From: Escherichia phage vB_EcoS_ASO78B
Length of the DNA stretch: 46,233 nucleotides
Reading direction: 5' to 3' (one strand)
Sequence record: MZ726796.1
This document shows positions 17,714 through 43,738 of this stretch, piece by piece (the stretch's first letter is position 1; each line of letters opens with the position of its first letter). Position numbers and translations under genes: made by a program. A model generated the notes under the pieces. That model searched no databases and was not told the DNA's origin. It was given only the letters and a program-made list of their open reading frames with translations.

Positions 17714-17954
17714 GATTTATCTTCACCCATCCTTTGCTTGCACCATGCGATACGATAAGTCCTTTCTTGCGCAACGCCTGAAGTCGGCGATCAAGGACTC
17801 GAAATCCCTCATGTGGTTTTGTTGCCAGCTTTTCACACTCTGCATGTATTCCGCTATGAATGCCTCCAGAGAAATGAATAGCCATGAACGTCATCGGCTC
17901 AACATAATCAAGCTCATCCATAATCATTGCGTCGAGTTCTTCATACTTGCTCAT
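17703..17954 (-). CDS. hypothetical protein
   Basis: 83 aa; C-terminal RVLDRRLQALRKKGLI may be a winged-helix DNA-binding element. Confidence 0.45.
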   Translation of the reverse strand: MSKYEELDAMIMDELDYVEPMTFMAIHFSGGIHSGIHAECEKLATKPHEGFRVLDRRLQALRKKGLIVSHGASKGWVKINHER

Positions 17955-18763
17955 CGCATCTTCTCCAGAATTGCCATGACCTCATGAATGTCAGCGACAG
18001 GAATCTGAATAAATTCCTCATCCTCTGCCACCACATGACCAGCAGGTAGAATTACATGGTCGGCTTGCTTCAACAGTTCAATCAGGCGGTCCACTGGCTT
18101 AATCTTCTTTGACTTCAGCACCTTCGCTGTGACCTTATCCTTGCCTTGCGCTTTAGCCTCTTCGACTGCCTCGTTGATAACTTTAACCGCATCATCACCA
18201 TGCTCGCGCGTTACCGCTACGGCGTTTGCATAGCTGATTTGCCCTGCGCTGATGCGAGCCTTCACTTCTGCTGGCACATCACCCAGTGACAGATGCATTT
18301 GCACGTCAGATACTGAACGACCTACCTTCTTGGCGATCTCTTCATTCGTCCAGCCAAAGCCTTTCAGTCTCGTATAAGCCTTCGCGCGCTCAAACGGGTC
18401 AAGTTGCTTTCCCTGACTGGATGAAACCATGAAGGCGATTTTATCTGCTTCGTCTCCGGTAAAATCCTTACACTCAATACGAACTATTGGTGCACCTCGT
18501 TCAATGGCACGCAATGCGCCGAGATAGCGATGCTGACCATCAAGAATGCGGATTCCCTTCTCGTCTGGAATGACTGTTAATGCTGGCAGTGGCTGACCTG
18601 ATTCCCAGCACTGCGCGAAATACTCCACATGCTGCTCATCTGCTTCACGGATGTTGTATCCTGGTTCCAGATAGATTTGCTCAACTGGCACTAGATAGGT
18701 TTTGTTAACAGCGATGCCGTTGCGCGTTTCTTTGTCTGAATAGATTTTGCTTAGTGTTTTCAT
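17951..18763 (-). CDS. ParB-like nuclease domain protein
   Basis: ParB/Srx-type motif IRILDGQHRYLGA in N-terminal half; 270 aa. Confidence 0.7.
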   Translation of the reverse strand: MKTLSKIYSDKETRNGIAVNKTYLVPVEQIYLEPGYNIREADEQHVEYFAQCWESGQPLPALTVIPDEKGIRILDGQHRYLGALRAIERGAPIVRIECKDFTGDEADKIAFMVSSSQGKQLDPFERAKAYTRLKGFGWTNEEIAKKVGRSVSDVQMHLSLGDVPAEVKARISAGQISYANAVAVTREHGDDAVKVINEAVEEAKAQGKDKVTAKVLKSKKIKPVDRLIELLKQADHVILPAGHVVAEDEEFIQIPVADIHEVMAILEKMR

Positions 18764-36862: not shown

Positions 36863-38720
36863 TAATGCGGTGCGTGATGCGTTTTGGCGCTTTAATCAAT
36901 GCCGCATACATCATGAATTGCTTGGCGTTTTGGCATTTCAGTATTTTCCCCGCCATTGACTTATCATCAAGGTGAGGAAAGACCGCCTTTGCCTTGAACA
37001 TGTTTTTCATGTGAGTTGCGCCACCATAAGGGTAGAAAACTTCGTTAGCCCAGCCTTCTTTGCCATCACAACGATTAATCCAGTAGCGATACAAAATACC
37101 TTCTCCATCCTTAGTTAACTGGACTTTGAAATCCATAACATCAGCCCACTCATTATCGGTATACGCACGCTCATTAAGTGCCGCATTCGGGTCGCGCAAA
37201 ACATGATCGCAATGTCGGCAATAACGCGCAGTGGGGTCGTTTTTAGTGCCGCAGCCATCATCAAAAATACGGATTCCGTGCTTATCGAAACCGCAACGGA
37301 TGTAACTGAAAAACTCCTCGCAACGACCGTCTGGCGATAATGCATCTTTGCCAATGCAGCGGCGCGCATATGGGCTGTTCATTGTCCCGCACTTCGGACA
37401 CGGAACCTGTTCACCACTGCGTTTTGAACGTTGCGCTTCAGCCTCTTCAAGGATTGGGTCTTCATACAGCTGACCAAGCTCAAACATCGTGCCTGAGAAA
37501 TCAAGAACCAGATGATCTTCTTTATGATACCCGGCATCAATTTGCTCTTTCTTCAGCAAGCGCATCCCGCGACCAAGCAACTGGACAAGGAGAGTTAGCG
37601 ACATTATTTTTCGTAATATGCAGCTCGTATCCCATAGCGGAATGTTGACACCAGTGGTAAGGGCTGCTATCTGGAATGTGAATTTTTTGCGCCCGGTGTA
37701 TGCATCTTTTAGAGCCTTCCTTCTGGCTTTTGGCCCCATATCTTCTGTAACTATTGAATAGCTTCCTTCAGGTAGGTATTTTGCCGCCTCCTGACAGTGC
37801 TTCTTGCCAGCACATGTAATCAATACTCCGTTTCTGTTTTTAGTCAGCTCCATAACCTTTAGCATTATTTTCTGCGTCAGCGTACCTTGTTCAAGGATTT
37901 CTTTCTGCATCTGCTTGAGCTGCTCGGTGGTAAAGTCCTGTGTGCCATCAACATCTGAACCATGAAACTCGGAAAGGTCATAATGCAGACTATCAACATC
38001 ATGAAGACCAAAAATTGTTGGCACAAGAAAGCCGTTTTCAACCATGTACTTGGTGTCTATATTGATAATCTCTTTCTTCCAGAAAGCGCCTTTTATTGAT
38101 GTAGTTCCGCGAAACGGTGAGCCTGTATAACCTATTATTCTCAACTCATGGCCGTGCTTATCTTTGCACCTTTTCATTAGCTCATTAATTATCACTGCAT
38201 ACTGCGTATCACCATCATTAACAACATCAATGTCATTAACCATATGATTTTCATCGATAAGCAGGAATCTTGGGCAAAAGTCAGAAAGCGCACCTTTTGC
38301 AATAACATTCCCTGATTCATCATTTTTATCAAACAAAGCATTTACAACAGTACCCTCAGAACCACAAATTATTGGATACGTAGAACTTTTCCTCCCCAAC
38401 GAAGCGCTGAATAGCGAGTTTCTTACACCAAGCGACCATAGCTCTTCCGCATCTTGCTCCACTATTTCGCCCTGTCTTGATAAAATCATCCCTGAATAGC
38501 CCATTTCCTGAAAACGCTTTGCTATCATGGCAATCATCAGTGACTTTCCGCTACCGACGCTTGCTGTTACATAGCTTGGACCAACATAATGGCGGATCAC
38601 ATCACCAGTTAACTTATATATCAACCACTGATATGGTCTTGGCTCGATATCACCAGTATCCAGATAAGATTTCAGTAGATTAATATCAATCTCTGAAATC
38701 ATCTTGTCTATTTTATGCAT
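36798..38720 (-). CDS. SF2 DNA helicase (DExH box) with C-terminal zinc ribbons
   Basis: Walker A SVGSGKS, LLIDENH DExH box, C-terminal CPKCG...C and CRHC pairs. Confidence 0.8.
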   Translation of the reverse strand: MHKIDKMISEIDINLLKSYLDTGDIEPRPYQWLIYKLTGDVIRHYVGPSYVTASVGSGKSLMIAMIAKRFQEMGYSGMILSRQGEIVEQDAEELWSLGVRNSLFSASLGRKSSTYPIICGSEGTVVNALFDKNDESGNVIAKGALSDFCPRFLLIDENHMVNDIDVVNDGDTQYAVIINELMKRCKDKHGHELRIIGYTGSPFRGTTSIKGAFWKKEIINIDTKYMVENGFLVPTIFGLHDVDSLHYDLSEFHGSDVDGTQDFTTEQLKQMQKEILEQGTLTQKIMLKVMELTKNRNGVLITCAGKKHCQEAAKYLPEGSYSIVTEDMGPKARRKALKDAYTGRKKFTFQIAALTTGVNIPLWDTSCILRKIMSLTLLVQLLGRGMRLLKKEQIDAGYHKEDHLVLDFSGTMFELGQLYEDPILEEAEAQRSKRSGEQVPCPKCGTMNSPYARRCIGKDALSPDGRCEEFFSYIRCGFDKHGIRIFDDGCGTKNDPTARYCRHCDHVLRDPNAALNERAYTDNEWADVMDFKVQLTKDGEGILYRYWINRCDGKEGWANEVFYPYGGATHMKNMFKAKAVFPHLDDKSMAGKILKCQNAKQFMMYAALIKAPKRITHRINDKGRDIIHRKDFAGEQSEAA

Positions 38721-39241
38721 TATTTTACCCTACCAAATTCACCATGATACTTTTTTGATGCTTCCGCATAAACTTTTGCTGCTTCTTCTTTTGTATCATA
38801 TCTGCCGAGCCATATTTTTTTATTATTTACATGTATAGAGCAAGTCCATTTTTTTGTTTGCTTACAAAAACCAACCCCTTTTACACCGGATGTGTTATGG
38901 CTTGGAATCCTCATGTTTCTTAAATTTCCATTAAAGTTTGTTTCTCTTAGGTTTTCTATCCTGTTATTCAATCTATTACCATCTTTATGGTCTATTATTA
39001 ACTCAGGCCAATAACCATGCACTAAAGCCCAAATTATTCTATGAACCTTTATATCAACCCCTAAAAATCCAACCTGAAGATATCCACTTACAGTCTTCGA
39101 ACCTGCAATAGCGCCACGTTTAACCCTGTTTGTTGTTGTTCTTTTCCATATGAGATTTATTCCGTCATATGAAAAATACTCCCGCAGCGTGGATACTGGT
39201 ATTGACTTCTCTTTTAACTTCATCAATTCGAAATCATTCAC
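38720..39241 (-). CDS. HNH-AP2 homing endonuclease (paralog of 548-1060)
   Basis: IDHKDGNRLNNRIENLRE HNH motif and SGVKGVGF..GRY AP2-like region; 1-nt overlap with helicase start. Confidence 0.8.
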   Translation of the reverse strand: MNDFELMKLKEKSIPVSTLREYFSYDGINLIWKRTTTNRVKRGAIAGSKTVSGYLQVGFLGVDIKVHRIIWALVHGYWPELIIDHKDGNRLNNRIENLRETNFNGNLRNMRIPSHNTSGVKGVGFCKQTKKWTCSIHVNNKKIWLGRYDTKEEAAKVYAEASKKYHGEFGRVK

Positions 39242-39303: not shown

Positions 39304-40254
39304 ATGTTTTATTGGGAAGAGATACAACAAAAGATGATTGGAAATTGGGAGGCGGCATTACTGTCAATAGTCAACATAGACAGGAAAATTTTTTCTGGGA
39401 AACATCAACCATGCCCTCATTGCATGGGGGTTGATCGGTTCCGCTGGGATAATCACTTCGAAATCAAAGGCGATGGCGGCGCAATATGCAATCAGTGCGG
39501 GTCAGGTAGCGGCATGAACTGGCTGATGAAACTTTCAGGCATGAACTTCCCTGAAGCACTAGAGGCGCTTGGTGGATTCCTGAATATGCACCCACGCGAA
39601 AAGCTGGAGGCAATCAGGAAGGAGTTGCCGAAGATAAATTACAACGATGACTTCATCACCGAGCAGGAAGTCGCCGCAATCATGTCTAAAACTACGCGTG
39701 TCTCGATGAATGAGTGGACTTTGACAAATGGTATTGGTTGTGACGTTAACGTCGTCAGAGGCAAATCTGGAGAGCTTATTGCGGTTGAGATGGTGCGTGC
39801 TGATACAATGAAGCCGTGCAACGTAGCATTCATTGGCATGGATGGTGATTCATTCAGAACGTTTTTCCGCGCAGGATACAACAAGGACTCAGCCATCAAC
39901 GGCAAACTCACACGCGGCGCGATAAGCACAATCGGAGAAGATAATGGAAAGTTCATTTATCTGGTATCTGATTATGCCGATGCGTGGAAGTGCCATTACT
40001 TCACTGGCGCGCATGTCTGGTGCTGCTGGTATCCTGAAAACATGTGGGAAGTGGTGCGTTCTGTTAGCGATGAGATGAAGGCACGGTTACGCTGCATAGT
40101 TAATTATAAATTTGACGAACTTTGTGCTGCGGAAAATGCAGGACTTCCGGTGATGTTGCCTGATGATGCTGACACTATCAGGATGGCGAAGCGAATCAGA
40201 AGAAAGATTTATGACGCTGGCGAGTTGATAGAAAAAATGTCAGTAAGCAGATAA
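39304..40254 (+). CDS. DNA primase (zinc-ribbon N-terminus)
   Basis: GKHQPCPHCMGVDRFRWDNH...CNQCGSGSGMNWLMK matches the primase zinc-binding ribbon pattern; only + strand gene inside the minus-strand module. Confidence 0.65.
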   Translation: MFYWEEIQQKMIGNWEAALLSIVNIDRKIFSGKHQPCPHCMGVDRFRWDNHFEIKGDGGAICNQCGSGSGMNWLMKLSGMNFPEALEALGGFLNMHPREKLEAIRKELPKINYNDDFITEQEVAAIMSKTTRVSMNEWTLTNGIGCDVNVVRGKSGELIAVEMVRADTMKPCNVAFIGMDGDSFRTFFRAGYNKDSAINGKLTRGAISTIGEDNGKFIYLVSDYADAWKCHYFTGAHVWCCWYPENMWEVVRSVSDEMKARLRCIVNYKFDELCAAENAGLPVMLPDDADTIRMAKRIRRKIYDAGELIEKMSVSR

Positions 40255-40283: not shown

Positions 40284-40699
40284 TATTCCTTGAACTCTGG
40301 CGCTTCAGTCCAGAAGGCTACATTTCGCAGCGACTTACCCGTGTGATTGCACCAGTATATGCCTGAGTCATCATACTTCGCAGTAACCTTTACGCGATCA
40401 GCATCAATAACAACAACCTCCTGTCCATCTTTAGGGTCGAAAAGACGCGCATCTTTCCAGTTAGCAATCTCATTAAGTGAAAGAATGACATAACCAGGAA
40501 GATAAGAGCCGACATCAGCGATGTGAACTATAGTTCTCTCTGTTCTCTCTCCTGTGTAGTCTCCATTCCACTCATAAAGAATAATCGTGTCTCCAACCTT
40601 AAAATCACGATCGTTCTTTCTTAGTTCCGCCTTCTTGTGTCCGGTGACTACAGGCCAGAAGTGCTCAGGTAAAATTTTAAGTTCGTGTGTTTTGCTCAT
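40283..40699 (-). CDS. DUF3850 / ASCH-like (PUA-fold) domain protein
   Basis: N-terminal HELKILPEHF..V.TG.KKAELRKNDRDFKVGD matches the DUF3850 pattern as recalled; about 60-aa C-terminal extension. Confidence 0.55.
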   Translation of the reverse strand: MSKTHELKILPEHFWPVVTGHKKAELRKNDRDFKVGDTIILYEWNGDYTGERTERTIVHIADVGSYLPGYVILSLNEIANWKDARLFDPKDGQEVVVIDADRVKVTAKYDDSGIYWCNHTGKSLRNVAFWTEAPEFKE

Positions 40700-42276
40700 T
40701 ACAACCCCCTCATAAATCTCATGCGCTTAACGGCAGCAGAAAGATAATTTCTAACAGTTGAGTTCATCCGCAGACCATCCCATGAACCATCACTACACAT
40801 CTTAATTGCTCTTGGATTATCCCTGTCCAGCATTAGTGGTGAATGTTTGTTCTCCTCAATGGCAAGAAGAACTTCATAAACAAATTTATCCGGCGTTAAT
40901 GTGATATTATTCGAGTCAGCAGAATTGATTATCTTTTCAACTCTGTCACGGCACAGCTTGTTCTTTATAACAGACAAATAAGGCGTTTTAATGAATGCCT
41001 GCGATTCACAAATTCGCTTTATTTTTTCAACAATGTTCGACCACTCAGTATTCTCAAGCCCATCAAATGCCTGTTCACCCTCAAGGAATCTTTTCAGCCC
41101 TGCGAGGTGTTCAAGAACCGTGAGATAACCCCACTCGATATGCTCCGTCGTCACTGATGGTGTCATCCCCCGCCGACTTGACAGATCGGTATACGCCGCC
41201 AGAGTTGCAAGATCGACAATCATTAGACCCATACGAGGGATAACATCGCCAACAACACCATCGCAATCACCAAGCTCACTTTCCAGTTTCATAGACAGAT
41301 ATCTGTGCAGTTTTTTCGCATTATCATCAGCCCACACAACGTTAGTTTTCGCGGTAAGAACCCTACCTTTCCACTCATTGATTATTTTTCTTGAAAGCGT
41401 ACCACTCACTTCCACATCCTTCATTGCTGGCATTTCCTCACCAGCAAGATGACCAAGCTGGAACAGCACGCGCCCCATACCGCCATCCTTCTGCCATGAA
41501 CGCGCAGCATCTATTCCCTGCTCTGGCGTGACAGTAATCAGCGGAACAAATTTTGCGTTTTCAATTCCACCGTCTTTTGTTGCAAGTTCGTACTCATTCA
41601 TTGCCGACTTTAGCGCGCGCCCAACGCTGTGGTCCATCATCGCAAGGCGCTTATAATCTATGACTCCTTTCCCATCATCGCCACCAGTAAGTGGCACTAT
41701 CCATCCCTCAGCACTTGCTGCCGCCATGATGCGTTTTGGGTTTTGTTCCCAAGTAAGGTTTTCAAGCAACTCCTTGATTATTGGTCTGTTAGGCACCCAC
41801 ACTCCGCCATCAGTTAGGCCTCTATACCACGCCATCGTACCGCCAAGATATGCATTGCGCGGGTTGTTCCAGTCTTCAAGATGTTGCTTGTCATCGTTCA
41901 CAACGTAGAGCAAAGACCCACCTCCGGCAATCAGGTCTAACTGCATCTGTTTCGTCGATGTTGATTTAGATGCACAAACTCTGGAACCTATTCCCAGCTC
42001 ATTGGCATATGCCCTGACGAAACTCACCGGTGCACCCTTACCTGCACCAGAGCGAGCTACCAGAAATATGCCAGTATTGCAGATACTACCTGTTGGACCA
42101 ATCAAGTATCGTCCAGCCATCGCCTGAGCAAGGCCCAAAGCGCCAGTTAATCGATATCTTTCCCCTCCCTCACGGCGCTCAAACCCCCTTGCGATCTCAT
42201 CCATAAACTCACCAAGTGCCCCGGGAGTCTCCCGATTTATGCCCATAGCCAGAGACTCAAAATCAATCGAACTCAT
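40699..42276 (-). CDS. large hypothetical protein (525 aa)
   Basis: start taken at MSSIDF (ATG 42276) with GGAGGGTG RBS; GAGKG segment is not a canonical Walker A; ATGA-coupled to the DUF3850 gene. Confidence 0.5.
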   Translation of the reverse strand: MSSIDFESLAMGINRETPGALGEFMDEIARGFERREGGERYRLTGALGLAQAMAGRYLIGPTGSICNTGIFLVARSGAGKGAPVSFVRAYANELGIGSRVCASKSTSTKQMQLDLIAGGGSLLYVVNDDKQHLEDWNNPRNAYLGGTMAWYRGLTDGGVWVPNRPIIKELLENLTWEQNPKRIMAAASAEGWIVPLTGGDDGKGVIDYKRLAMMDHSVGRALKSAMNEYELATKDGGIENAKFVPLITVTPEQGIDAARSWQKDGGMGRVLFQLGHLAGEEMPAMKDVEVSGTLSRKIINEWKGRVLTAKTNVVWADDNAKKLHRYLSMKLESELGDCDGVVGDVIPRMGLMIVDLATLAAYTDLSSRRGMTPSVTTEHIEWGYLTVLEHLAGLKRFLEGEQAFDGLENTEWSNIVEKIKRICESQAFIKTPYLSVIKNKLCRDRVEKIINSADSNNITLTPDKFVYEVLLAIEENKHSPLMLDRDNPRAIKMCSDGSWDGLRMNSTVRNYLSAAVKRMRFMRGL

Positions 42277-42568
42277 CAATACACCCTCCATACGCGCAAG
42301 AATTTACCCGGGATAACACCATGTTTCACCGTTAACACAGCACCCACCCTGTCAGCCTCAATTTTTAGCGCTTTCTGAAGTGACGCCACTGTCATCTGAA
42401 AACCTCGCTCTATGTCGTATGCGTAGCACCCATCTCTGCCACCAATCAAAATTGAAGTTGAATACCCGTTCTCAAAGTAAAACTGACACCCATCAGGAAC
42501 GGTAAGATTATTTATCACGTCGTTAGCAAGCGATGTCGTAACAGGGAATATCGGCGCGCAACTCATAC
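42276..42568 (-). CDS. hypothetical protein
   Basis: about 97 aa from MSCAPIF; 1-nt overlap with the 525-aa gene. Confidence 0.4.
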
Positions 42569-42573
42569 TCACC

Positions 42574-42804
42574 TCACTCAACTCGCTTAATGTGCAAAAC
42601 TTCATCGAAATATGAGCACGTTCTGAATTTCATCCCGAAATCCTCACCAACCCTTCCGAGACACGCGCGAAATCTTTCAACAGACAGCCCTTTATCTGCA
42701 ATATCCTCATAAGAAATCGAATTAACCTGACCAACATCAATATGTTTTGCAATGCGATACACGAACTCCATCTTTGAACCGTCACGATACATTTTGTTTC
42801 TCAT
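42574..42804 (-). CDS. hypothetical protein (first gene of the minus-strand module)
   Basis: 76 aa from MRNKMY with GGAGG RBS; next to the AT-rich control region. Confidence 0.4.
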   Translation of the reverse strand: MRNKMYRDGSKMEFVYRIAKHIDVGQVNSISYEDIADKGLSVERFRACLGRVGEDFGMKFRTCSYFDEVLHIKRVE

Positions 42805-42967
42805 AGTAACCTCCATCCGCATTCCAATAGTAACTATAGATAAAAAATAAAATTAACGCAACACAAAACAGGTCTAACCAGCAACAACAGCTACCACAAT
42901 TAACAACTGGTAAGACCACCATCTCATATCTGATATGTGTGGATGGTGCCTGTCGTTCAATTTGCAC

Positions 42968-43400
42968 TCGATTTTTACCTAATTTACCGTATATTTATTG
43001 GTCAGTTTTTTGCATAACTAATTGATTTATATGATTTTACCGGTTTTACCGGAACTCTAATGAGTATTTTCATCATTGAGAGTGTCAGTATATTAATTGG
43101 TCTAATTTTTAAAGAACTCCAATAAAATCAATATATTAATATAAGAAAGTAACTTACTTACTTATATAGGATTTACCGGGTAAAACCGGTAACTCCTCCG
43201 CAGCCCGCGTCATTACTGGATTGATTTTTACCACCTGTAGGTAAATACAGTAGTTTTTAAGTCAGGATTGTTTTTGTAAGATGTTGATTACCGGTACTTT
43301 ATTTGAAAAACCGGGATTTACCGGGTTTTTGTGGTGTGATTAATAATCGCGCAATTGGTCATGTTTCACCAGAACCCACTAATGCGACACCTGAAAATCA
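42968..43400. repeat. AT-rich divergent control region with ACCGG iterons
   Basis: at least 7 copies of TTTACCGG/ACCGG[GT] at 43034-43051, 43171-43190, 43285-43296, 43306-43329; inverted TTTACC..GGTAAA at 43225-43245; no ORF. Confidence 0.6.
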
Positions 43401-43401
43401 T

Positions 43402-43430
43402 ATTGACGTAGAGTCACAACTGATGTAGAT
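43402..43430 (+). promoter_or_regulatory. sigma70 promoter for the right-end + strand genes
   Basis: TTGACG, 17-nt spacer, TAGATT, 30 nt upstream of ATG 43461; both hexamers sit within copies of the recurring motif. Confidence 0.5.
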
Positions 43431-43460
43431 TGAACTCATCGAAACAACGAGGGTGAAGAG

Positions 43461-43646
43461 ATGAGCAAAGAAAGCACGTACAGCATCGACCAGATGAAGT
43501 TATTCAGCGATATATGCATGGCATTATCACAACAGGTTCCGAGCCTTCCTGCTGACATGCGTTCAAATGCAATCATTGATGCAGCAAACATGATTTGCGA
43601 GGCTTATGCGATAACTGAAGATGAATATAAGGATTCGAAGAAATGA
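43461..43646 (+). CDS. hypothetical protein
   Basis: 61 aa; GAGGGTGAAGAG RBS. Confidence 0.4.
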   Translation: MSKESTYSIDQMKLFSDICMALSQQVPSLPADMRSNAIIDAANMICEAYAITEDEYKDSKK

Positions 43647-43738
43647 CAGGCGCAACACTCGGGCTTATCGCCAGCCTGGTTATCGTGGCATTCATCATTA
43701 TCGCAGTGGCAGTTTCAAAATCAGGGTATAAGGAGTGA
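43643..43738 (+). CDS. small single-TM peptide (31 aa)
   Basis: Hand-translated MTGATLGLIASLVIVAFIIIAVAVSKSGYKE; ATGA-coupled to the upstream gene. Confidence 0.3.
   Translation: MTGATLGLIASLVIVAFIIIAVAVSKSGYKE

What the first reader, a model, noticed from the sequence alone, without database searches (positions are those of the whole stretch)
42968..43400. ACCGG iteron cluster in the 490-bp divergent control region
The largest ORF-free region is AT-rich and carries at least seven copies of TTTACCGG/ACCGG[GT] in direct and inverted arrangements, plus a TTTACC..GGTAAA inverted repeat. It lies between the minus-strand replication module and the + strand right-end genes, directly upstream of a TTGACG-N17-TAGATT promoter. 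This is the architecture of a replication origin or a multi-operator regulatory switch.
Basis: seen in the sequence. Interest (0 to 1): 0.6.

Follow-up and report, generated by a model that had tools for sequence, protein, structure and literature searches.

The report
Probable phage replication origin with iterons
The repeat cluster is real and is most likely this phage's DNA replication origin: short repeated binding sites on both sides of an easily melted AT-rich stretch, next to the gene for the MCM-like helicase that probably recognises them. It is an ordinary kind of origin that has not been annotated or described for this phage group.

Summary
TTACCGG occurs 12 times in the 46 kb window, and 6 copies lie in 42968-43400 (binomial P 6e-10; 0 of 2000 dinucleotide shuffles reach this).

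- **Layout:** the sites sit on both sides of the least stable 100 bp of duplex in the window (43075-43174). They lie between two divergent promoters without overlapping either.
- **Relatives:** fifteen related loci show the same layout with different repeat words (TTACCGG variants, GGGAAC, ACTTC, CCCCACG, GGGCA). The repeats beat shuffles clearly in 12 of 16 loci.
- **What tracks the repeat word:** it follows the adjacent ~530-aa protein. It does not follow the small upstream proteins or the ParB-like protein.
- **Cassette swap:** helicase, small genes and repeats exchange as one 2.7-kb unit between phages whose flanking genes are 87-96% identical.

Best reading (about 0.75): an iteron-type origin read by a self-loading helicase-initiator. 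It works like the SaPI Rep/ori and P4 alpha/ori systems, but the helicase superfamily differs and the origin lies upstream of the gene. A pure operator array is unlikely. Binding and origin activity are untested. Novelty: new member of a known kind; moderate interest.

The parts
42974..42990 (+). Iteron pair A, degenerate: TTTACCTA and TTTACCGT, 9 bp apart.
   Evidence: Conserved in Bas81 and ZCEC08. Bas77 has three TTTACC-type repeats here although the surrounding sequence does not align.
43036..43052 (+). Iteron pair B: TTTACCGG twice, 9 bp apart, at the left edge of the AT-rich tract.
   Evidence: (family D1).
43075..43174 (.). AT-rich tract, the candidate DNA-unwinding element.
   Evidence: This is the least stable 50-, 100- and 150-bp duplex segment in the whole window. 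Its 100-bp dG is -105.9 against a mean of -138.5 (sd 7.2). A tract of at least 80% AT over 69-140 bp sits between repeat clusters in the relatives that have complete regions.
43172..43193 (.). Iteron pair C, inverted: TTTACCGG forward and GTTACCGG reverse, at the right edge of the AT tract.
   Evidence: (I8, 92% complementary arms). The same inverted pair sits at the same position in L009, L011 and L014.
43194..43219 (.). GC-rich conserved element CTCCTCCGCAGCCCGCGTCATTACTGG. Its function is unknown; it may bound the melted region or be a priming or loading site.
   Evidence: Conserved next to the inverted pair in Bas77, L011, L014 and L017, although the proteins there are only 29-52% identical.
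43227..43245 (.). Inverted half-site pair D: TTTACC-N7-GGTAAA.
   Evidence: L009 and L011 carry two reverse full iterons at the equivalent position.
43287..43324 (+). Iterons E1-E3: ATTACCGG (inside the palindrome TACCGGTA), AAAACCGG and TTTACCGG, starting 20 and 10 bp apart.
   Evidence: invariant cores in all four close relatives.
43015..43027 (-). Match to the IHF consensus WATCAANNNNTTR, one of three. The others are at 43126-43138 (+) and 43277-43289 (-).
   Evidence: Three matches against about 0.1 expected, reached by 0 of 500 shuffles. At least one match occurs in 9 of 10 related loci. This is a consensus match only.
43403..43431 (+). Rightward early promoter TTGACG-N17-TAGATT. It marks the right boundary of the swapped cassette.
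   Evidence: The 62 bp from 43403 are 90-97% identical in phages of other genera, while the DNA to the left is unrelated.
42833..42861 (-). Candidate leftward promoter TTGCGT-N17-TATAGT for the replication operon.
   Evidence: Read from the sequence. The scanner missed it because the -35 matches only 3 of 6. Similar TTGNNN-N16/17-TA(C/T)A(A/T)T sites sit at the same place in L008, L009 and L011 (sequences). This is an inference.
40699..42291 (-). Gene for the 530-aa MCM-like, DUF3987-related AAA+ helicase, the proposed initiator and iteron reader. Walker A is ARSGAGKG. A C-terminal helix-helix-helix-strand-strand domain is predicted at about 436-500.
42276..42566 (-). Gene for a 96-aa protein of unknown function that travels with the helicase. 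It is a possible accessory factor or an alternative iteron reader.
   Evidence: 90-95% identical in the four close relatives and 19-31% identical in L008, L009 and L011. No family match. L016 has repeats but no such gene.
42574..42804 (-). Gene for a 76-aa protein, first in the leftward operon. It is not the iteron reader.
   Evidence: Bas77 has the same iterons but a protein only 23% identical. L008, L009 and L011 lack this gene.
39304..40254 (+). DNA primase gene (zinc ribbon, phrog_510). It is a partner of the helicase and lies outside the swapped cassette.

Best explanation
The region 42970-43330 is the phage's origin of replication, of the iteron type.

**Shown by these analyses**
- About a dozen copies of an 8-bp site, consensus (G)ATTTACCGG with core TTACC, are present. 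They occur as pairs 9-10 bp apart on both sides of a roughly 100-bp AT-rich tract.
- That tract is the easiest place in the genome to melt.
- The repeat word co-varies with the adjacent 530-aa protein (40699-42291, minus strand).
- That protein has an MCM-like AAA+ fold related to DUF3987.
- Helicase, small genes and repeats are exchanged between phages as one cassette.

**Inferred mechanism**
1. The 530-aa helicase binds the sites, probably through its C-terminal winged-helix-like domain.
2. It assembles on both flanks, melts the AT tract and loads itself.
3. The separately encoded primase (39304-40254) primes synthesis and a DNA polymerase, presumably the host's, extends.
4. The divergent early promoters on either side and IHF-like bending sites may help opening.

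I infer binding, melting, self-loading and the identity of the reading domain from analogy with SaPI Rep/ori and P4 alpha/ori. I also infer use of the host polymerase; only part of the genome was screened for a phage polymerase.
For: **1. The repeats are real and unique to this spot.** Six of 12 TTACCGG copies fall in 433 bp (P 6e-10; 0 of 2000 shuffles). There is no second cluster.

**2. A candidate unwinding element lies between the repeat clusters.** 43075-43174 is the least stable 100-bp duplex in 46 kb, about 4.5 sd from the mean.

**3. The same layout recurs with different repeat words.**
- Bas81, ZCEC08 and Bas77: TTTACCGG.
- L009/L010, L011, L014 and L015: TTACCGG-type words.
- L019: TTACCAA. 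L017: TTAACCG. L016: TTTACTA(T/C)G.
- L008: GGGAACTC. L018: ACTTC(C/T).
- Bas79, DS8 and Akira: CCCCACG. SB28: GGGCA.
- Sources.
- The top GC-containing 6-mer beats all 300 shuffles in 9 of 16 loci and all but one or none in 12.

**4. The repeat word follows the large protein.**
- The protein is 94-97% identical in the four TTTACCGG phages and 14-22% identical where the repeats are unrelated.
- Bas77 swaps the small 76-aa protein (23% identity) and keeps the repeats.
- Bas79 and DS8 share helicase and repeats but have different small proteins.
- L016 has repeats and no small upstream gene, though its repeats are not individually significant.
- The ParB-like protein is 98.9% identical in DS8, which has different repeats.

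**5. The cassette is swapped as a unit.** Between the window and DS8 the ASCH protein is 96% identical and the first rightward protein 87%, but the helicase only 14%. DNA similarity to other genera resumes exactly at the -35 of the rightward promoter.

**6. The protein is a replicative-helicase type.**
- It matches phrog_3022 over the helicase part of a primase-helicase profile.
- Twenty of 42 remote homologues match Pfam DUF3987; 6 carry Prim-Pol.
- AF2 gives pLDDT 90.6 and pTM 0.87.
- DUF3987 proteins are described as MCM-like phage replicative helicases with a C-terminal wHTH, often next to a primase (PMC4889955).

**7. The layout matches the published SaPI origin.** That origin has 6-12 iterons with a central AT-rich region and is read by the WHD of a self-loading helicase (PMC9371898; PMC7581432).

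**8. The iterons do not overlap the core promoters**.
Against: - No experiment supports the reading: no binding, melting or origin-activity data exist for this phage or any relative found.
- The window protein itself does not reach any Pfam threshold (DUF3987 E 0.26). hhalign between its family and the Bas79/SB28 DUF3987 proteins found nothing with shallow alignments. The family link is therefore transitive and structural.
- The C-terminal winged helix is supported only by the predicted secondary-structure order, a weak RPA32 WH-domain match (E 0.007) and the literature statement for DUF3987. I could not test it as a separate domain.
- Iteron orientation does not fit the SaPI rule cleanly. All sites left of the AT tract and most sites to its right point the same way.
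- The cumulative GC-skew minimum at about 43 kb is confounded by the switch in gene orientation.
- Repeats in L016, L017 and L019 are not individually significant.
Confidence: 0.75

Rival explanations
1. The region is an origin, but the iterons are read by the small 96-aa protein (42276-42566) encoded just upstream of the helicase. That protein would then recruit the helicase, as a separate initiator recruits a helicase in lambda O/P or in plasmid Rep systems.
For: The 96-aa protein is present and 90-95% identical in all four TTTACCGG phages. Homologues 19-31% identical precede the helicase in L008, L009 and L011, and small ORFs of 67-94 aa precede it in L014, L015, L018 and L019. It therefore changes together with both the helicase and the repeats.
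Against: L016 has repeats but no small gene between them and the helicase, though its repeats are weak. In the DUF3987 lineages the small upstream protein differs between Bas79 and DS8 (which has an AP2-like protein) while helicase and repeats stay the same. The 96-aa protein matches no DNA-binding family. The helicase has a C-terminal wHTH-like domain, as DUF3987 proteins and SaPI Rep do.
Confidence: 0.12
2. The repeats are an operator or enhancer array for a cassette-encoded regulator that controls the divergent early promoters. The region is a transcriptional switch with no origin function.
For: The region lies between two divergent promoters. Initiators of iteron replicons often autoregulate through their own sites (general knowledge of pSC101 and P1 RepA). 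In L009 the last iteron-like site lies within about 13 bp of the rightward -35.
Against: No iteron overlaps a -35 or -10 hexamer in the window; the gaps are about 110 and 80 bp. The distance to the rightward promoter varies from about 10 to 70 bp among loci. The rightward promoter is 90-97% conserved across phages whose repeats are unrelated, so it is unlikely to depend on them. The repeats follow a helicase rather than a recognisable transcription factor. A long, maximally unstable AT tract framed by the repeats has no role in an operator model.
Confidence: 0.08
3. The repeats are a partition (parS-like) site or a packaging (pac) site, read by the ParB-like protein or the small terminase.
For: A ParB-like gene is present at 17951-18763. 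Clustered short repeats are typical of centromere-like sites and some pac sites.
Against: The ParB-like protein is 98.9% identical in DS8 and 98.5% in STGO-35-1; DS8 carries a different repeat word. The terminase genes lie about 2.8 kb away, at the start of the window. The repeat word changes with the helicase cassette while the rest of the genome stays similar.
Confidence: 0.03
4. The repeats are a chance product of AT-rich, low-complexity intergenic DNA.
For: The region is AT-rich (GC 0.33), and short words recur easily in such DNA.
Against: Zero of 2000 dinucleotide-preserving shuffles reach the observed counts. The repeated word is the GC-containing part of the sequence. The cores are invariant across four relatives. 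Analogous clusters recur in 12 of 16 loci at no more than 1 of 300 shuffles.
Confidence: 0.01

Closest known systems
SaPI replication origin with Rep / PriRep self-loading helicase (Staphylococcus aureus pathogenicity islands; Ubeda et al. 2007 as cited in PMC9371898 and PMC7581432)
   Same: Both have short iterons in two sets on either side of a central AT-rich region. Both lie next to the gene of a hexameric helicase that is also the initiator and reads the iterons with a C-terminal winged-helix domain. A separate or fused primase is encoded nearby, and specificity differs between related elements.
Phage P4 ori/crr with the alpha primase-helicase
   Same: Octamer iterons in direct and inverted orientation are bound by the C-terminal domain of the phage's own helicase. 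A zinc-ribbon primase of the P4 alpha type is present in the module (PF08273). The P4 details rest on my own knowledge of the literature.
   Different: P4 alpha is a single primase-helicase fusion with an SF3 ATPase. P4 needs a second cis site (crr), and no second cluster exists here. The iteron sequences are unrelated (TGTTCACC against TTTACCGG).
DUF3987 / MCM-like (SF6) phage replicative helicases (Kazlauskas et al. 2016, PMC4889955)
   Same: The fold is shared. Twenty of 42 remote homologues match PF13148. The proteins at the same position in Bas79, DS8 and SB28 are clear DUF3987 members (E 1e-34). A primase is encoded next door, and a C-terminal wHTH is predicted.
   Different: The window protein does not itself reach the Pfam threshold, and its own family is small: 47 representatives among 1.8 billion. 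No origin or iteron has been described for this family in the searched library; no paper there holds both 'DUF3987' and 'iterons'.
SCCmec Cch (MCM-like) and Cch2 helicases with a putative iteron origin (PMC7581432)
   Different: The helicase shown to bind iterons there is Cch2, of the D5/SF3 type, with only three repeats. No iteron origin was reported in that paper for the MCM-like Cch.
Lambdoid ori with O protein, and iteron plasmids (pSC101, R6K, P1)
   Same: All combine iterons, an AT-rich unwinding region and IHF sites, and the replication module is exchanged between phages as a mosaic unit.
   Different: The lambda iterons lie inside the O gene, and the initiator is not a helicase but recruits host DnaB through P. 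Plasmid Rep proteins are WH-domain initiators without an ATPase. No DnaA box with one mismatch or fewer was found here.

Membership tests
Iteron-type replication origin (functional class) | A cluster of at least about 4 short repeats of one word, beyond chance | tested here: met
   6 of 12 TTACCGG copies in 433 bp, 0 of 2000 shuffles.
Iteron-type replication origin (functional class) | An AT-rich, easily melted segment adjacent to or between the repeats | tested here: met
   43075-43174 is the least stable 100-bp segment of the window. The same holds in relatives.
Iteron-type replication origin (functional class) | A cognate initiator encoded nearby, whose sequence changes when the repeat word changes | tested here: met
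   the repeat word follows the 530-aa helicase and the cassette is swapped as a unit.
Iteron-type replication origin (functional class) | Specific binding of the initiator to the repeats, and initiation of DNA synthesis there | not testable with these tools
   This needs EMSA or footprinting, marker-frequency analysis or plasmid origin assays.
SaPI-type ori / Rep | 6-12 penta- or hexanucleotide iterons split by a central AT-rich region | tested here: met
   About 12 sites with core TTACC(G) lie on both sides of the AT tract. Description in PMC9371898.
SaPI-type ori / Rep | [quoted passage not shown] | tested here: inconclusive
   All four left sites are forward. On the right one full iteron (43186-43193), one GGTAAA half-site (43240-43245) and the palindrome TACCGGTA read in reverse, and the rest are forward. 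L008, L009, L011 and Bas79 fit the rule better.
SaPI-type ori / Rep | Origin immediately downstream of the rep gene | tested here: not met
   The repeats lie upstream of the operon, separated from the helicase gene by two small genes.
SaPI-type ori / Rep | Rep ATPase of the SF3 type | tested here: not met
SaPI-type ori / Rep | C-terminal winged-helix domain that reads the iterons | tested here: inconclusive
   The AF2 model has H439-446, H449-459, H467-479, E486-488 and E495-498 at pLDDT about 90. There is a weak RPA32 WH match, E 0.007. The domain could not be searched alone, and binding is untested.
P4 alpha / ori-crr | Primase and helicase fused in one polypeptide | tested here: not met
   The primase is a separate gene on the opposite strand, 39304-40254.
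P4 alpha / ori-crr | A second cis-acting repeat cluster (crr) elsewhere in the genome | tested here: not met
   No second cluster of TTTACCGG or of paired sites.
DUF3987 (PF13148) MCM-like phage helicases | Match to PF13148 above the gathering score | tested here: not met
   The window protein scores E 0.26 and 10.9 bits against a cut-off of 27. Twenty of 42 remote homologues match at E <= 0.001, and Bas79 and SB28 match at 1e-34.
DUF3987 (PF13148) MCM-like phage helicases | MCM-like AAA+ fold with a Walker A P-loop | tested here: met
DUF3987 (PF13148) MCM-like phage helicases | Association with a primase gene (AEP or DnaG/TOPRIM type) | tested here: met
   A zinc-ribbon primase is encoded about 450 bp from the helicase gene. 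Remote homologues are fused to Prim-Pol, PriCT_2 or RepB primase domains.
DnaA-dependent (oriC-like) origin | DnaA boxes TTATCCACA with one mismatch or fewer | tested here: not met
   The only candidate is one 2-mismatch site, CCATCCACA, inside the palindrome at 42938-42946.
Structured RNA gene in the intergenic region | Match to an Rfam family | tested here: not met
   No match at E <= 1 in 42500-43700.

The most novel reading that the evidence does not exclude
MCM-like (DUF3987-superfamily) phage helicases are self-loading initiators that read short iterons through their C-terminal winged-helix domain. Helicase and origin form a 2.7-kb plug-in cassette that is freely exchanged among enterobacterial siphophages: at least three unrelated helicase lineages and about nine repeat words occupy one genomic slot. 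This would be the first origin assigned to this large helicase family. The 16 natural protein/iteron pairs would give a basis for working out how the protein recognises its site.
Probability: 0.55. Interest if true: 0.6.

Novelty: new member of a known kind. Interest (0 to 1): 0.45.

Why it matters
- **Annotation gap:** origins are rarely annotated in phage genomes. None is recorded for this group (Bas77-81, ZCEC08, Deseoctovirus, Akiravirus, Macdonaldcampvirus), and the closest phage's paper does not mention one.
- **A search recipe:** if the reading is right, origins next to DUF3987-type helicases, a widespread phage family, can be found by looking for iterons on both sides of an AT tract.
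- **Specificity:** the 16 helicase/iteron pairs found here could be used to study how a winged-helix domain evolves new DNA specificity.
- **Mosaic swap:** origin and initiator are exchanged here as one cassette between phages with otherwise similar genomes.
- **Practical use:** the region and its helicase could serve as a phage-dependent replicon or as a target for engineering BASEL-collection phages.
- **Limits:** the mechanism itself is conventional, so the result fills a gap rather than overturning anything.

Tried and rejected
- **Rfam** scan of 42500-43700 at E <= 1 found nothing, so a structured RNA is unlikely.
- **Direct family searches** of the 530-aa protein found nothing usable in Pfam, NCBIfam or PDB sequences. 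Only phrog_3022 matched.
- **Word-indexed protein search** gave only 6 clusters, both with the single sequence and with the profile.
- **hhalign** between the 530-aa family and the Bas79/SB28 DUF3987 proteins gave no match with shallow alignments. The link came later from the exhaustive profile search and from structure.
- **First AF2 run** with 7 sequences was unusable (pLDDT 44.6). The second, with 53 sequences, worked.
- **Promoter and terminator scan** found only + strand promoter-like sites, no more than chance, and no terminators. I read the leftward promoter by eye and by comparison with relatives, so it is weaker evidence.
- **DnaA boxes:** none with one mismatch or fewer.
- **Second repeat cluster (crr-like):** none.
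rejected, because it is 98.9% identical in a phage with different repeats.
rejected.
- **GC skew:** the minimum at about 43 kb coincides with the switch in gene strand, so I do not use it as evidence.
- **Specificity residues:** comparing C-terminal domains across 12 family members showed variability but no clear residue-to-base pattern.
- **Akira's linear record** ends inside the AT-rich core, with the repeats annotated as repeat_region. Other records are opened elsewhere, so I treat this as an arbitrary opening and not as a physical terminus.
- **Wasted search:** the first literature search used poorly chosen terms.
Full report
**What the window is.** The 46,233-bp window is essentially a whole siphophage genome.
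- It starts just upstream of the large terminase gene.
- Its closest relatives are Escherichia phages Bas81, ZCEC08, Bas77 and Bas80. More distant ones are Deseoctovirus DS8, Akiravirus and Macdonaldcampvirus SB28.
- The finding lies in the space between two diverging gene arms.
- The leftward arm holds, reading outward from the region: genes for a 76-aa and a 96-aa protein, a 530-aa protein, an ASCH/DUF3850 protein, a primase (on the + strand), an HNH-AP2 endonuclease, an SF2 helicase, an unknown protein, an exonuclease VIII-like protein, an Erf-like annealing protein and SSB.
- The rightward arm starts at 43461 with small early genes.

**Checking the observation.**
- TTTACCGG lies at 43036, 43045, 43172 and 43317; AAAACCGG at 43182 and 43307; ATTACCGG at 43287. 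All are on the + strand.
- A reverse GTTACCGG lies at 43193..43186, and TTTACC-N7-GGTAAA at 43227-43245.
- A degenerate pair lies at 42974 and 42983.
- Sites come in pairs 9-10 bp apart, about one helical turn.
- TTACCGG: 6 of its 12 genome copies lie in 433 bp (0.11 expected; binomial P 5.9e-10). No dinucleotide-preserving shuffle out of 2000 reaches that count.
- TTTACCGG occurs 7 times in the window against 0.79 expected. There is no second cluster.
- The region has GC 0.33 against 0.47 for the window.
- The promoter TTGACG-N17-TAGATT is at 43403-43431.
- One correction: the real intergenic space is about 656 bp. The first leftward gene most likely starts at 42804 (76 aa, RBS GGAGG), where its homologues start.

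**Anatomy.** From left to right the region contains:
1. a candidate leftward promoter, TTGCGT-N17-TATAGT (42861..42833, minus strand), read by eye and matched by similar sites at the same place in L008, L009 and L011;
2. a palindrome at 42915-42947;
3. iteron pair A;
4. iteron pair B;
5. a roughly 100-bp AT tract (43075-43174);
6. an inverted iteron pair C, directly at the right edge of the tract;
7. a conserved GC-rich element (43194-43219);
8. an inverted half-site pair D;
9. iterons E1-E3;
10. about 80 bp of conserved sequence, then the rightward promoter.

- The AT tract is the least stable 50-, 100- and 150-bp duplex segment in the whole window. Its 100-bp nearest-neighbour dG is -105.9 against a mean of -138.5 (sd 7.2).
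- Three matches to the IHF consensus lie in the region, against about 0.1 expected.
- No iteron overlaps a core promoter hexamer.
- Rfam finds nothing, and no good DnaA box is present.

**Comparative evidence, the decisive part.** The same intergenic slot in relatives has the same layout but different repeat words.
- Bas81, ZCEC08 and Bas77 keep TTTACCGG.
- Bas79, DS8 and Akira carry CCCCACG/CGTGGGG, and SB28 carries GGGCA/TGCCC. In each case the repeats flank a 127-140-bp AT tract.
- Homologues of the 530-aa protein retrieved from metagenome assemblies have, upstream of the gene:

| Protein | Identity to window | Locus | Repeat word |
|---|---|---|---|
| P0004 | 52% | L009/L010 | AGTTACCGG (11-13 copies) |
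| P0005 | 46% | L011 | AGTTACCGG (about 10 copies) |
| P0008 | 41% | L014 | TTTTACCGG |
| P0009 | 39% | L015 | ATTTACC(G/T)G |
| P0014 | 28% | L019 | TTACCAA |
| P0012 | 29% | L017 | TTAACCG |
| P0011 | 31% | L016 | TTTACTA(T/C)G |
| P0002 | 57% | L008 | GGGAACTC (12 copies) |
| P0010 | 37% | L018 | ACTTC(C/T) |

(Sources.)
- In a uniform test, the commonest GC-containing 6-mer beats all 300 shuffles in 9 of 16 loci and all but one or none in 12. L016, L017 and L019 are short, truncated or degenerate, and are not individually significant.

**Which protein goes with the repeats.**
- The 530-aa protein is 94-97% identical among the four TTTACCGG phages. It is only 14-22% identical to the protein in the same position in Bas79, DS8 and SB28.
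Bas77 has a small protein only 23% identical yet keeps all the iterons, and L008, L009 and L011 lack the gene.
- Bas79 and DS8 share helicase and repeats but have different small upstream proteins; DS8's is AP2-like.
- The 96-aa protein changes together with the helicase within this family. Co-variation cannot exclude it, although L016 has repeats and no such gene.
- The flanks are conserved while the middle is replaced. Between the window and DS8 the ASCH protein is 96% identical and the first rightward protein 87%, but the helicase only 14%. DNA similarity to other genera resumes exactly at the -35 of the rightward promoter.
- Helicase, small genes and repeats therefore form one exchangeable 2.7-kb cassette (about 40699-43402).

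**What the 530-aa protein is.**
- Direct family searches fail. The exception is phrog_3022, a 'DNA primase' profile of which only positions 358-712 of 788 are matched. All four family members tested match it there.
- An exhaustive profile search found 47 representatives among 1.8 billion proteins. Of 42 members scanned, 20 match Pfam DUF3987, 6 Prim-Pol and 2 PriCT_2; one each matches RepB primase and the NrS-1 HBD.
- AF2 with 53 sequences gave pLDDT 90.6 and pTM 0.87. A first run with 7 sequences had failed.
- Foldseek gives MCM at probability 0.99-1.0. BFVD returns DUF3987 proteins, a 'replicative DNA helicase' and primase-helicase fusions.
- Walker A is ARSGAGKG, and G84 and K85 are nearly invariant.
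- The C-terminal roughly 90 residues are predicted as three helices followed by a beta hairpin. They lie outside the phrog_3022 match and give a weak RPA32 winged-helix match (E 0.007).
- Kazlauskas et al. describe DUF3987 proteins as MCM-like phage replicative helicases with a C-terminal wHTH, usually next to a primase (PMC4889955).

**Mechanism proposed.** The site is an iteron-type origin.
1. The helicase binds the iterons, probably through its C-terminal domain.
2. It assembles on both sides of the AT tract, melts it and loads itself.
3. The neighbouring primase starts synthesis.
4. A DNA polymerase, presumably the host's, extends. The leftward-arm genes I scanned include no polymerase, but I did not screen the whole genome, and the ZCEC08 paper annotates a DNA polymerase as its ORF 37.

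The analyses establish the repeats, the unstable tract, the co-variation, the cassette swap and the helicase fold. I infer binding, melting, self-loading, the reading domain, any role for IHF and transcription, and use of the host polymerase.

**Comparison with known systems.**
- Functionally the closest is the SaPI origin. It has 6-12 iterons around a central AT-rich region, read by the C-terminal WHD of a self-loading helicase (PMC9371898; PMC7581432).
- P4 alpha/ori is the next closest.
- This is not a member of either family. The ATPase is MCM-like rather than SF3, the origin lies upstream rather than downstream of the gene, the primase is separate, and there is no crr-like second site.
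- The iteron-orientation rule described for SaPIs is only partly met in the window.
- No paper in the searched library holds both 'DUF3987' and 'iterons'. The ZCEC08 paper mentions no origin. The Akira record only labels the repeats as repeat_region.

**Rivals.**
- A pure operator array is unlikely. The iterons do not overlap the promoters, and the rightward promoter is conserved across phages with unrelated repeats. The repeats also follow a helicase, and an operator model gives the AT tract no role.
- A parS or pac function is unlikely.
- Chance is excluded.
- The main open alternative is that the 96-aa protein, rather than the helicase, reads the iterons.

**Verdict.** This is a new, unannotated member of a well-known kind of element. 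It gains some interest from the MCM-like initiator and from the clean natural series of helicase/iteron swaps. Interest 0.45; confidence in the origin reading about 0.75.

Noticed in passing
window 42915-42947: A 16+16-nt palindrome, ACCACCATCTCATATC / GATATGTGTGGATGGT, lies about 55-90 bp upstream of the candidate leftward promoter. It is present in Bas81 and ZCEC08, which share the 76-aa gene. It is absent in Bas77, which has a different small gene. It may be the operator of the 76-aa protein. It contains a 2-mismatch DnaA-box-like CCATCCACA.
   Followed up: partly
window 43194-43219: The GC-rich element CTCCTCCGCAGCCCGCGTCATTACTGG sits directly right of the inverted iteron pair. It is conserved in Bas77, L011, L014 and L017, although the helicases there are only 29-52% identical. 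Its function is unexplained; it could be a priming or loading site or a boundary of the melted region.
   Followed up: partly
window 43403-43464: The rightward early promoter and its 5' UTR and RBS are 90-97% identical across several genera (Akira, SB28, STGO-35-1, IME207, Sf11). Everything immediately to the left is replaced. This is a sharp mosaic boundary exactly at the -35.
   Followed up: partly
window 43015-43027 (-), 43126-43138 (+), 43277-43289 (-): Three matches to the IHF consensus WATCAANNNNTTR, against about 0.1 expected. At least one match is present in 9 of 10 related regions. Two of the three sit just before an iteron, so they may simply be an extension of the iteron (GATT..TTACC).
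   Followed up: partly
window 42997-43018, 43096-43117, 43354-43375: A second repeat family of 22 nt, ATTGGTC...(A/G)AAC, with three copies 73% alike (D2). It is only partly conserved in Bas77 and could be chance.
   Followed up: no
window 43303-43428 (+): A 41-aa TTG-start ORF overlaps iterons E2 and E3 and the rightward promoter. It is annotated as a CDS in Bas81 (Bas81_0088) and ZCEC08, whereas Bas77 annotates minus-strand ORFs in the same region. The annotations disagree, so the ORF is probably spurious.
   Followed up: partly
window 17951-18763 (-): A ParB-like gene (phrog_1033) in an apparently lytic phage. It is at least 95% identical in 136 phage records from Salmonella, Escherichia, Shigella, Klebsiella and other hosts. 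Its role and DNA target are unknown.
   Followed up: partly
window 38720-39241 (-): An HNH-AP2 homing-endonuclease-like gene lies between the SF2 helicase and primase genes. Relatives have no gene, a 190-aa version or a 334-aa version at this position. This looks like a mobile endonuclease insertion polymorphism.
   Followed up: no
L006 / L013 (Salmonella phage Akira MK599416.1 ends): The linear Akira record is opened inside the AT-rich core of the equivalent region, and the CCCCACG repeats are annotated as repeat_region at both ends. This is probably an arbitrary opening, but physical termini were not checked.
   Followed up: no
L015 and L018 (P0009, P0010 loci): The same helicase family, with upstream repeats, also occurs in a different phage type of 46-51 kb. 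There it sits next to Terminase_6C/GP3_package genes on one side and lysis genes on the other. The cassette therefore moves between unrelated phage backbones.
   Followed up: no
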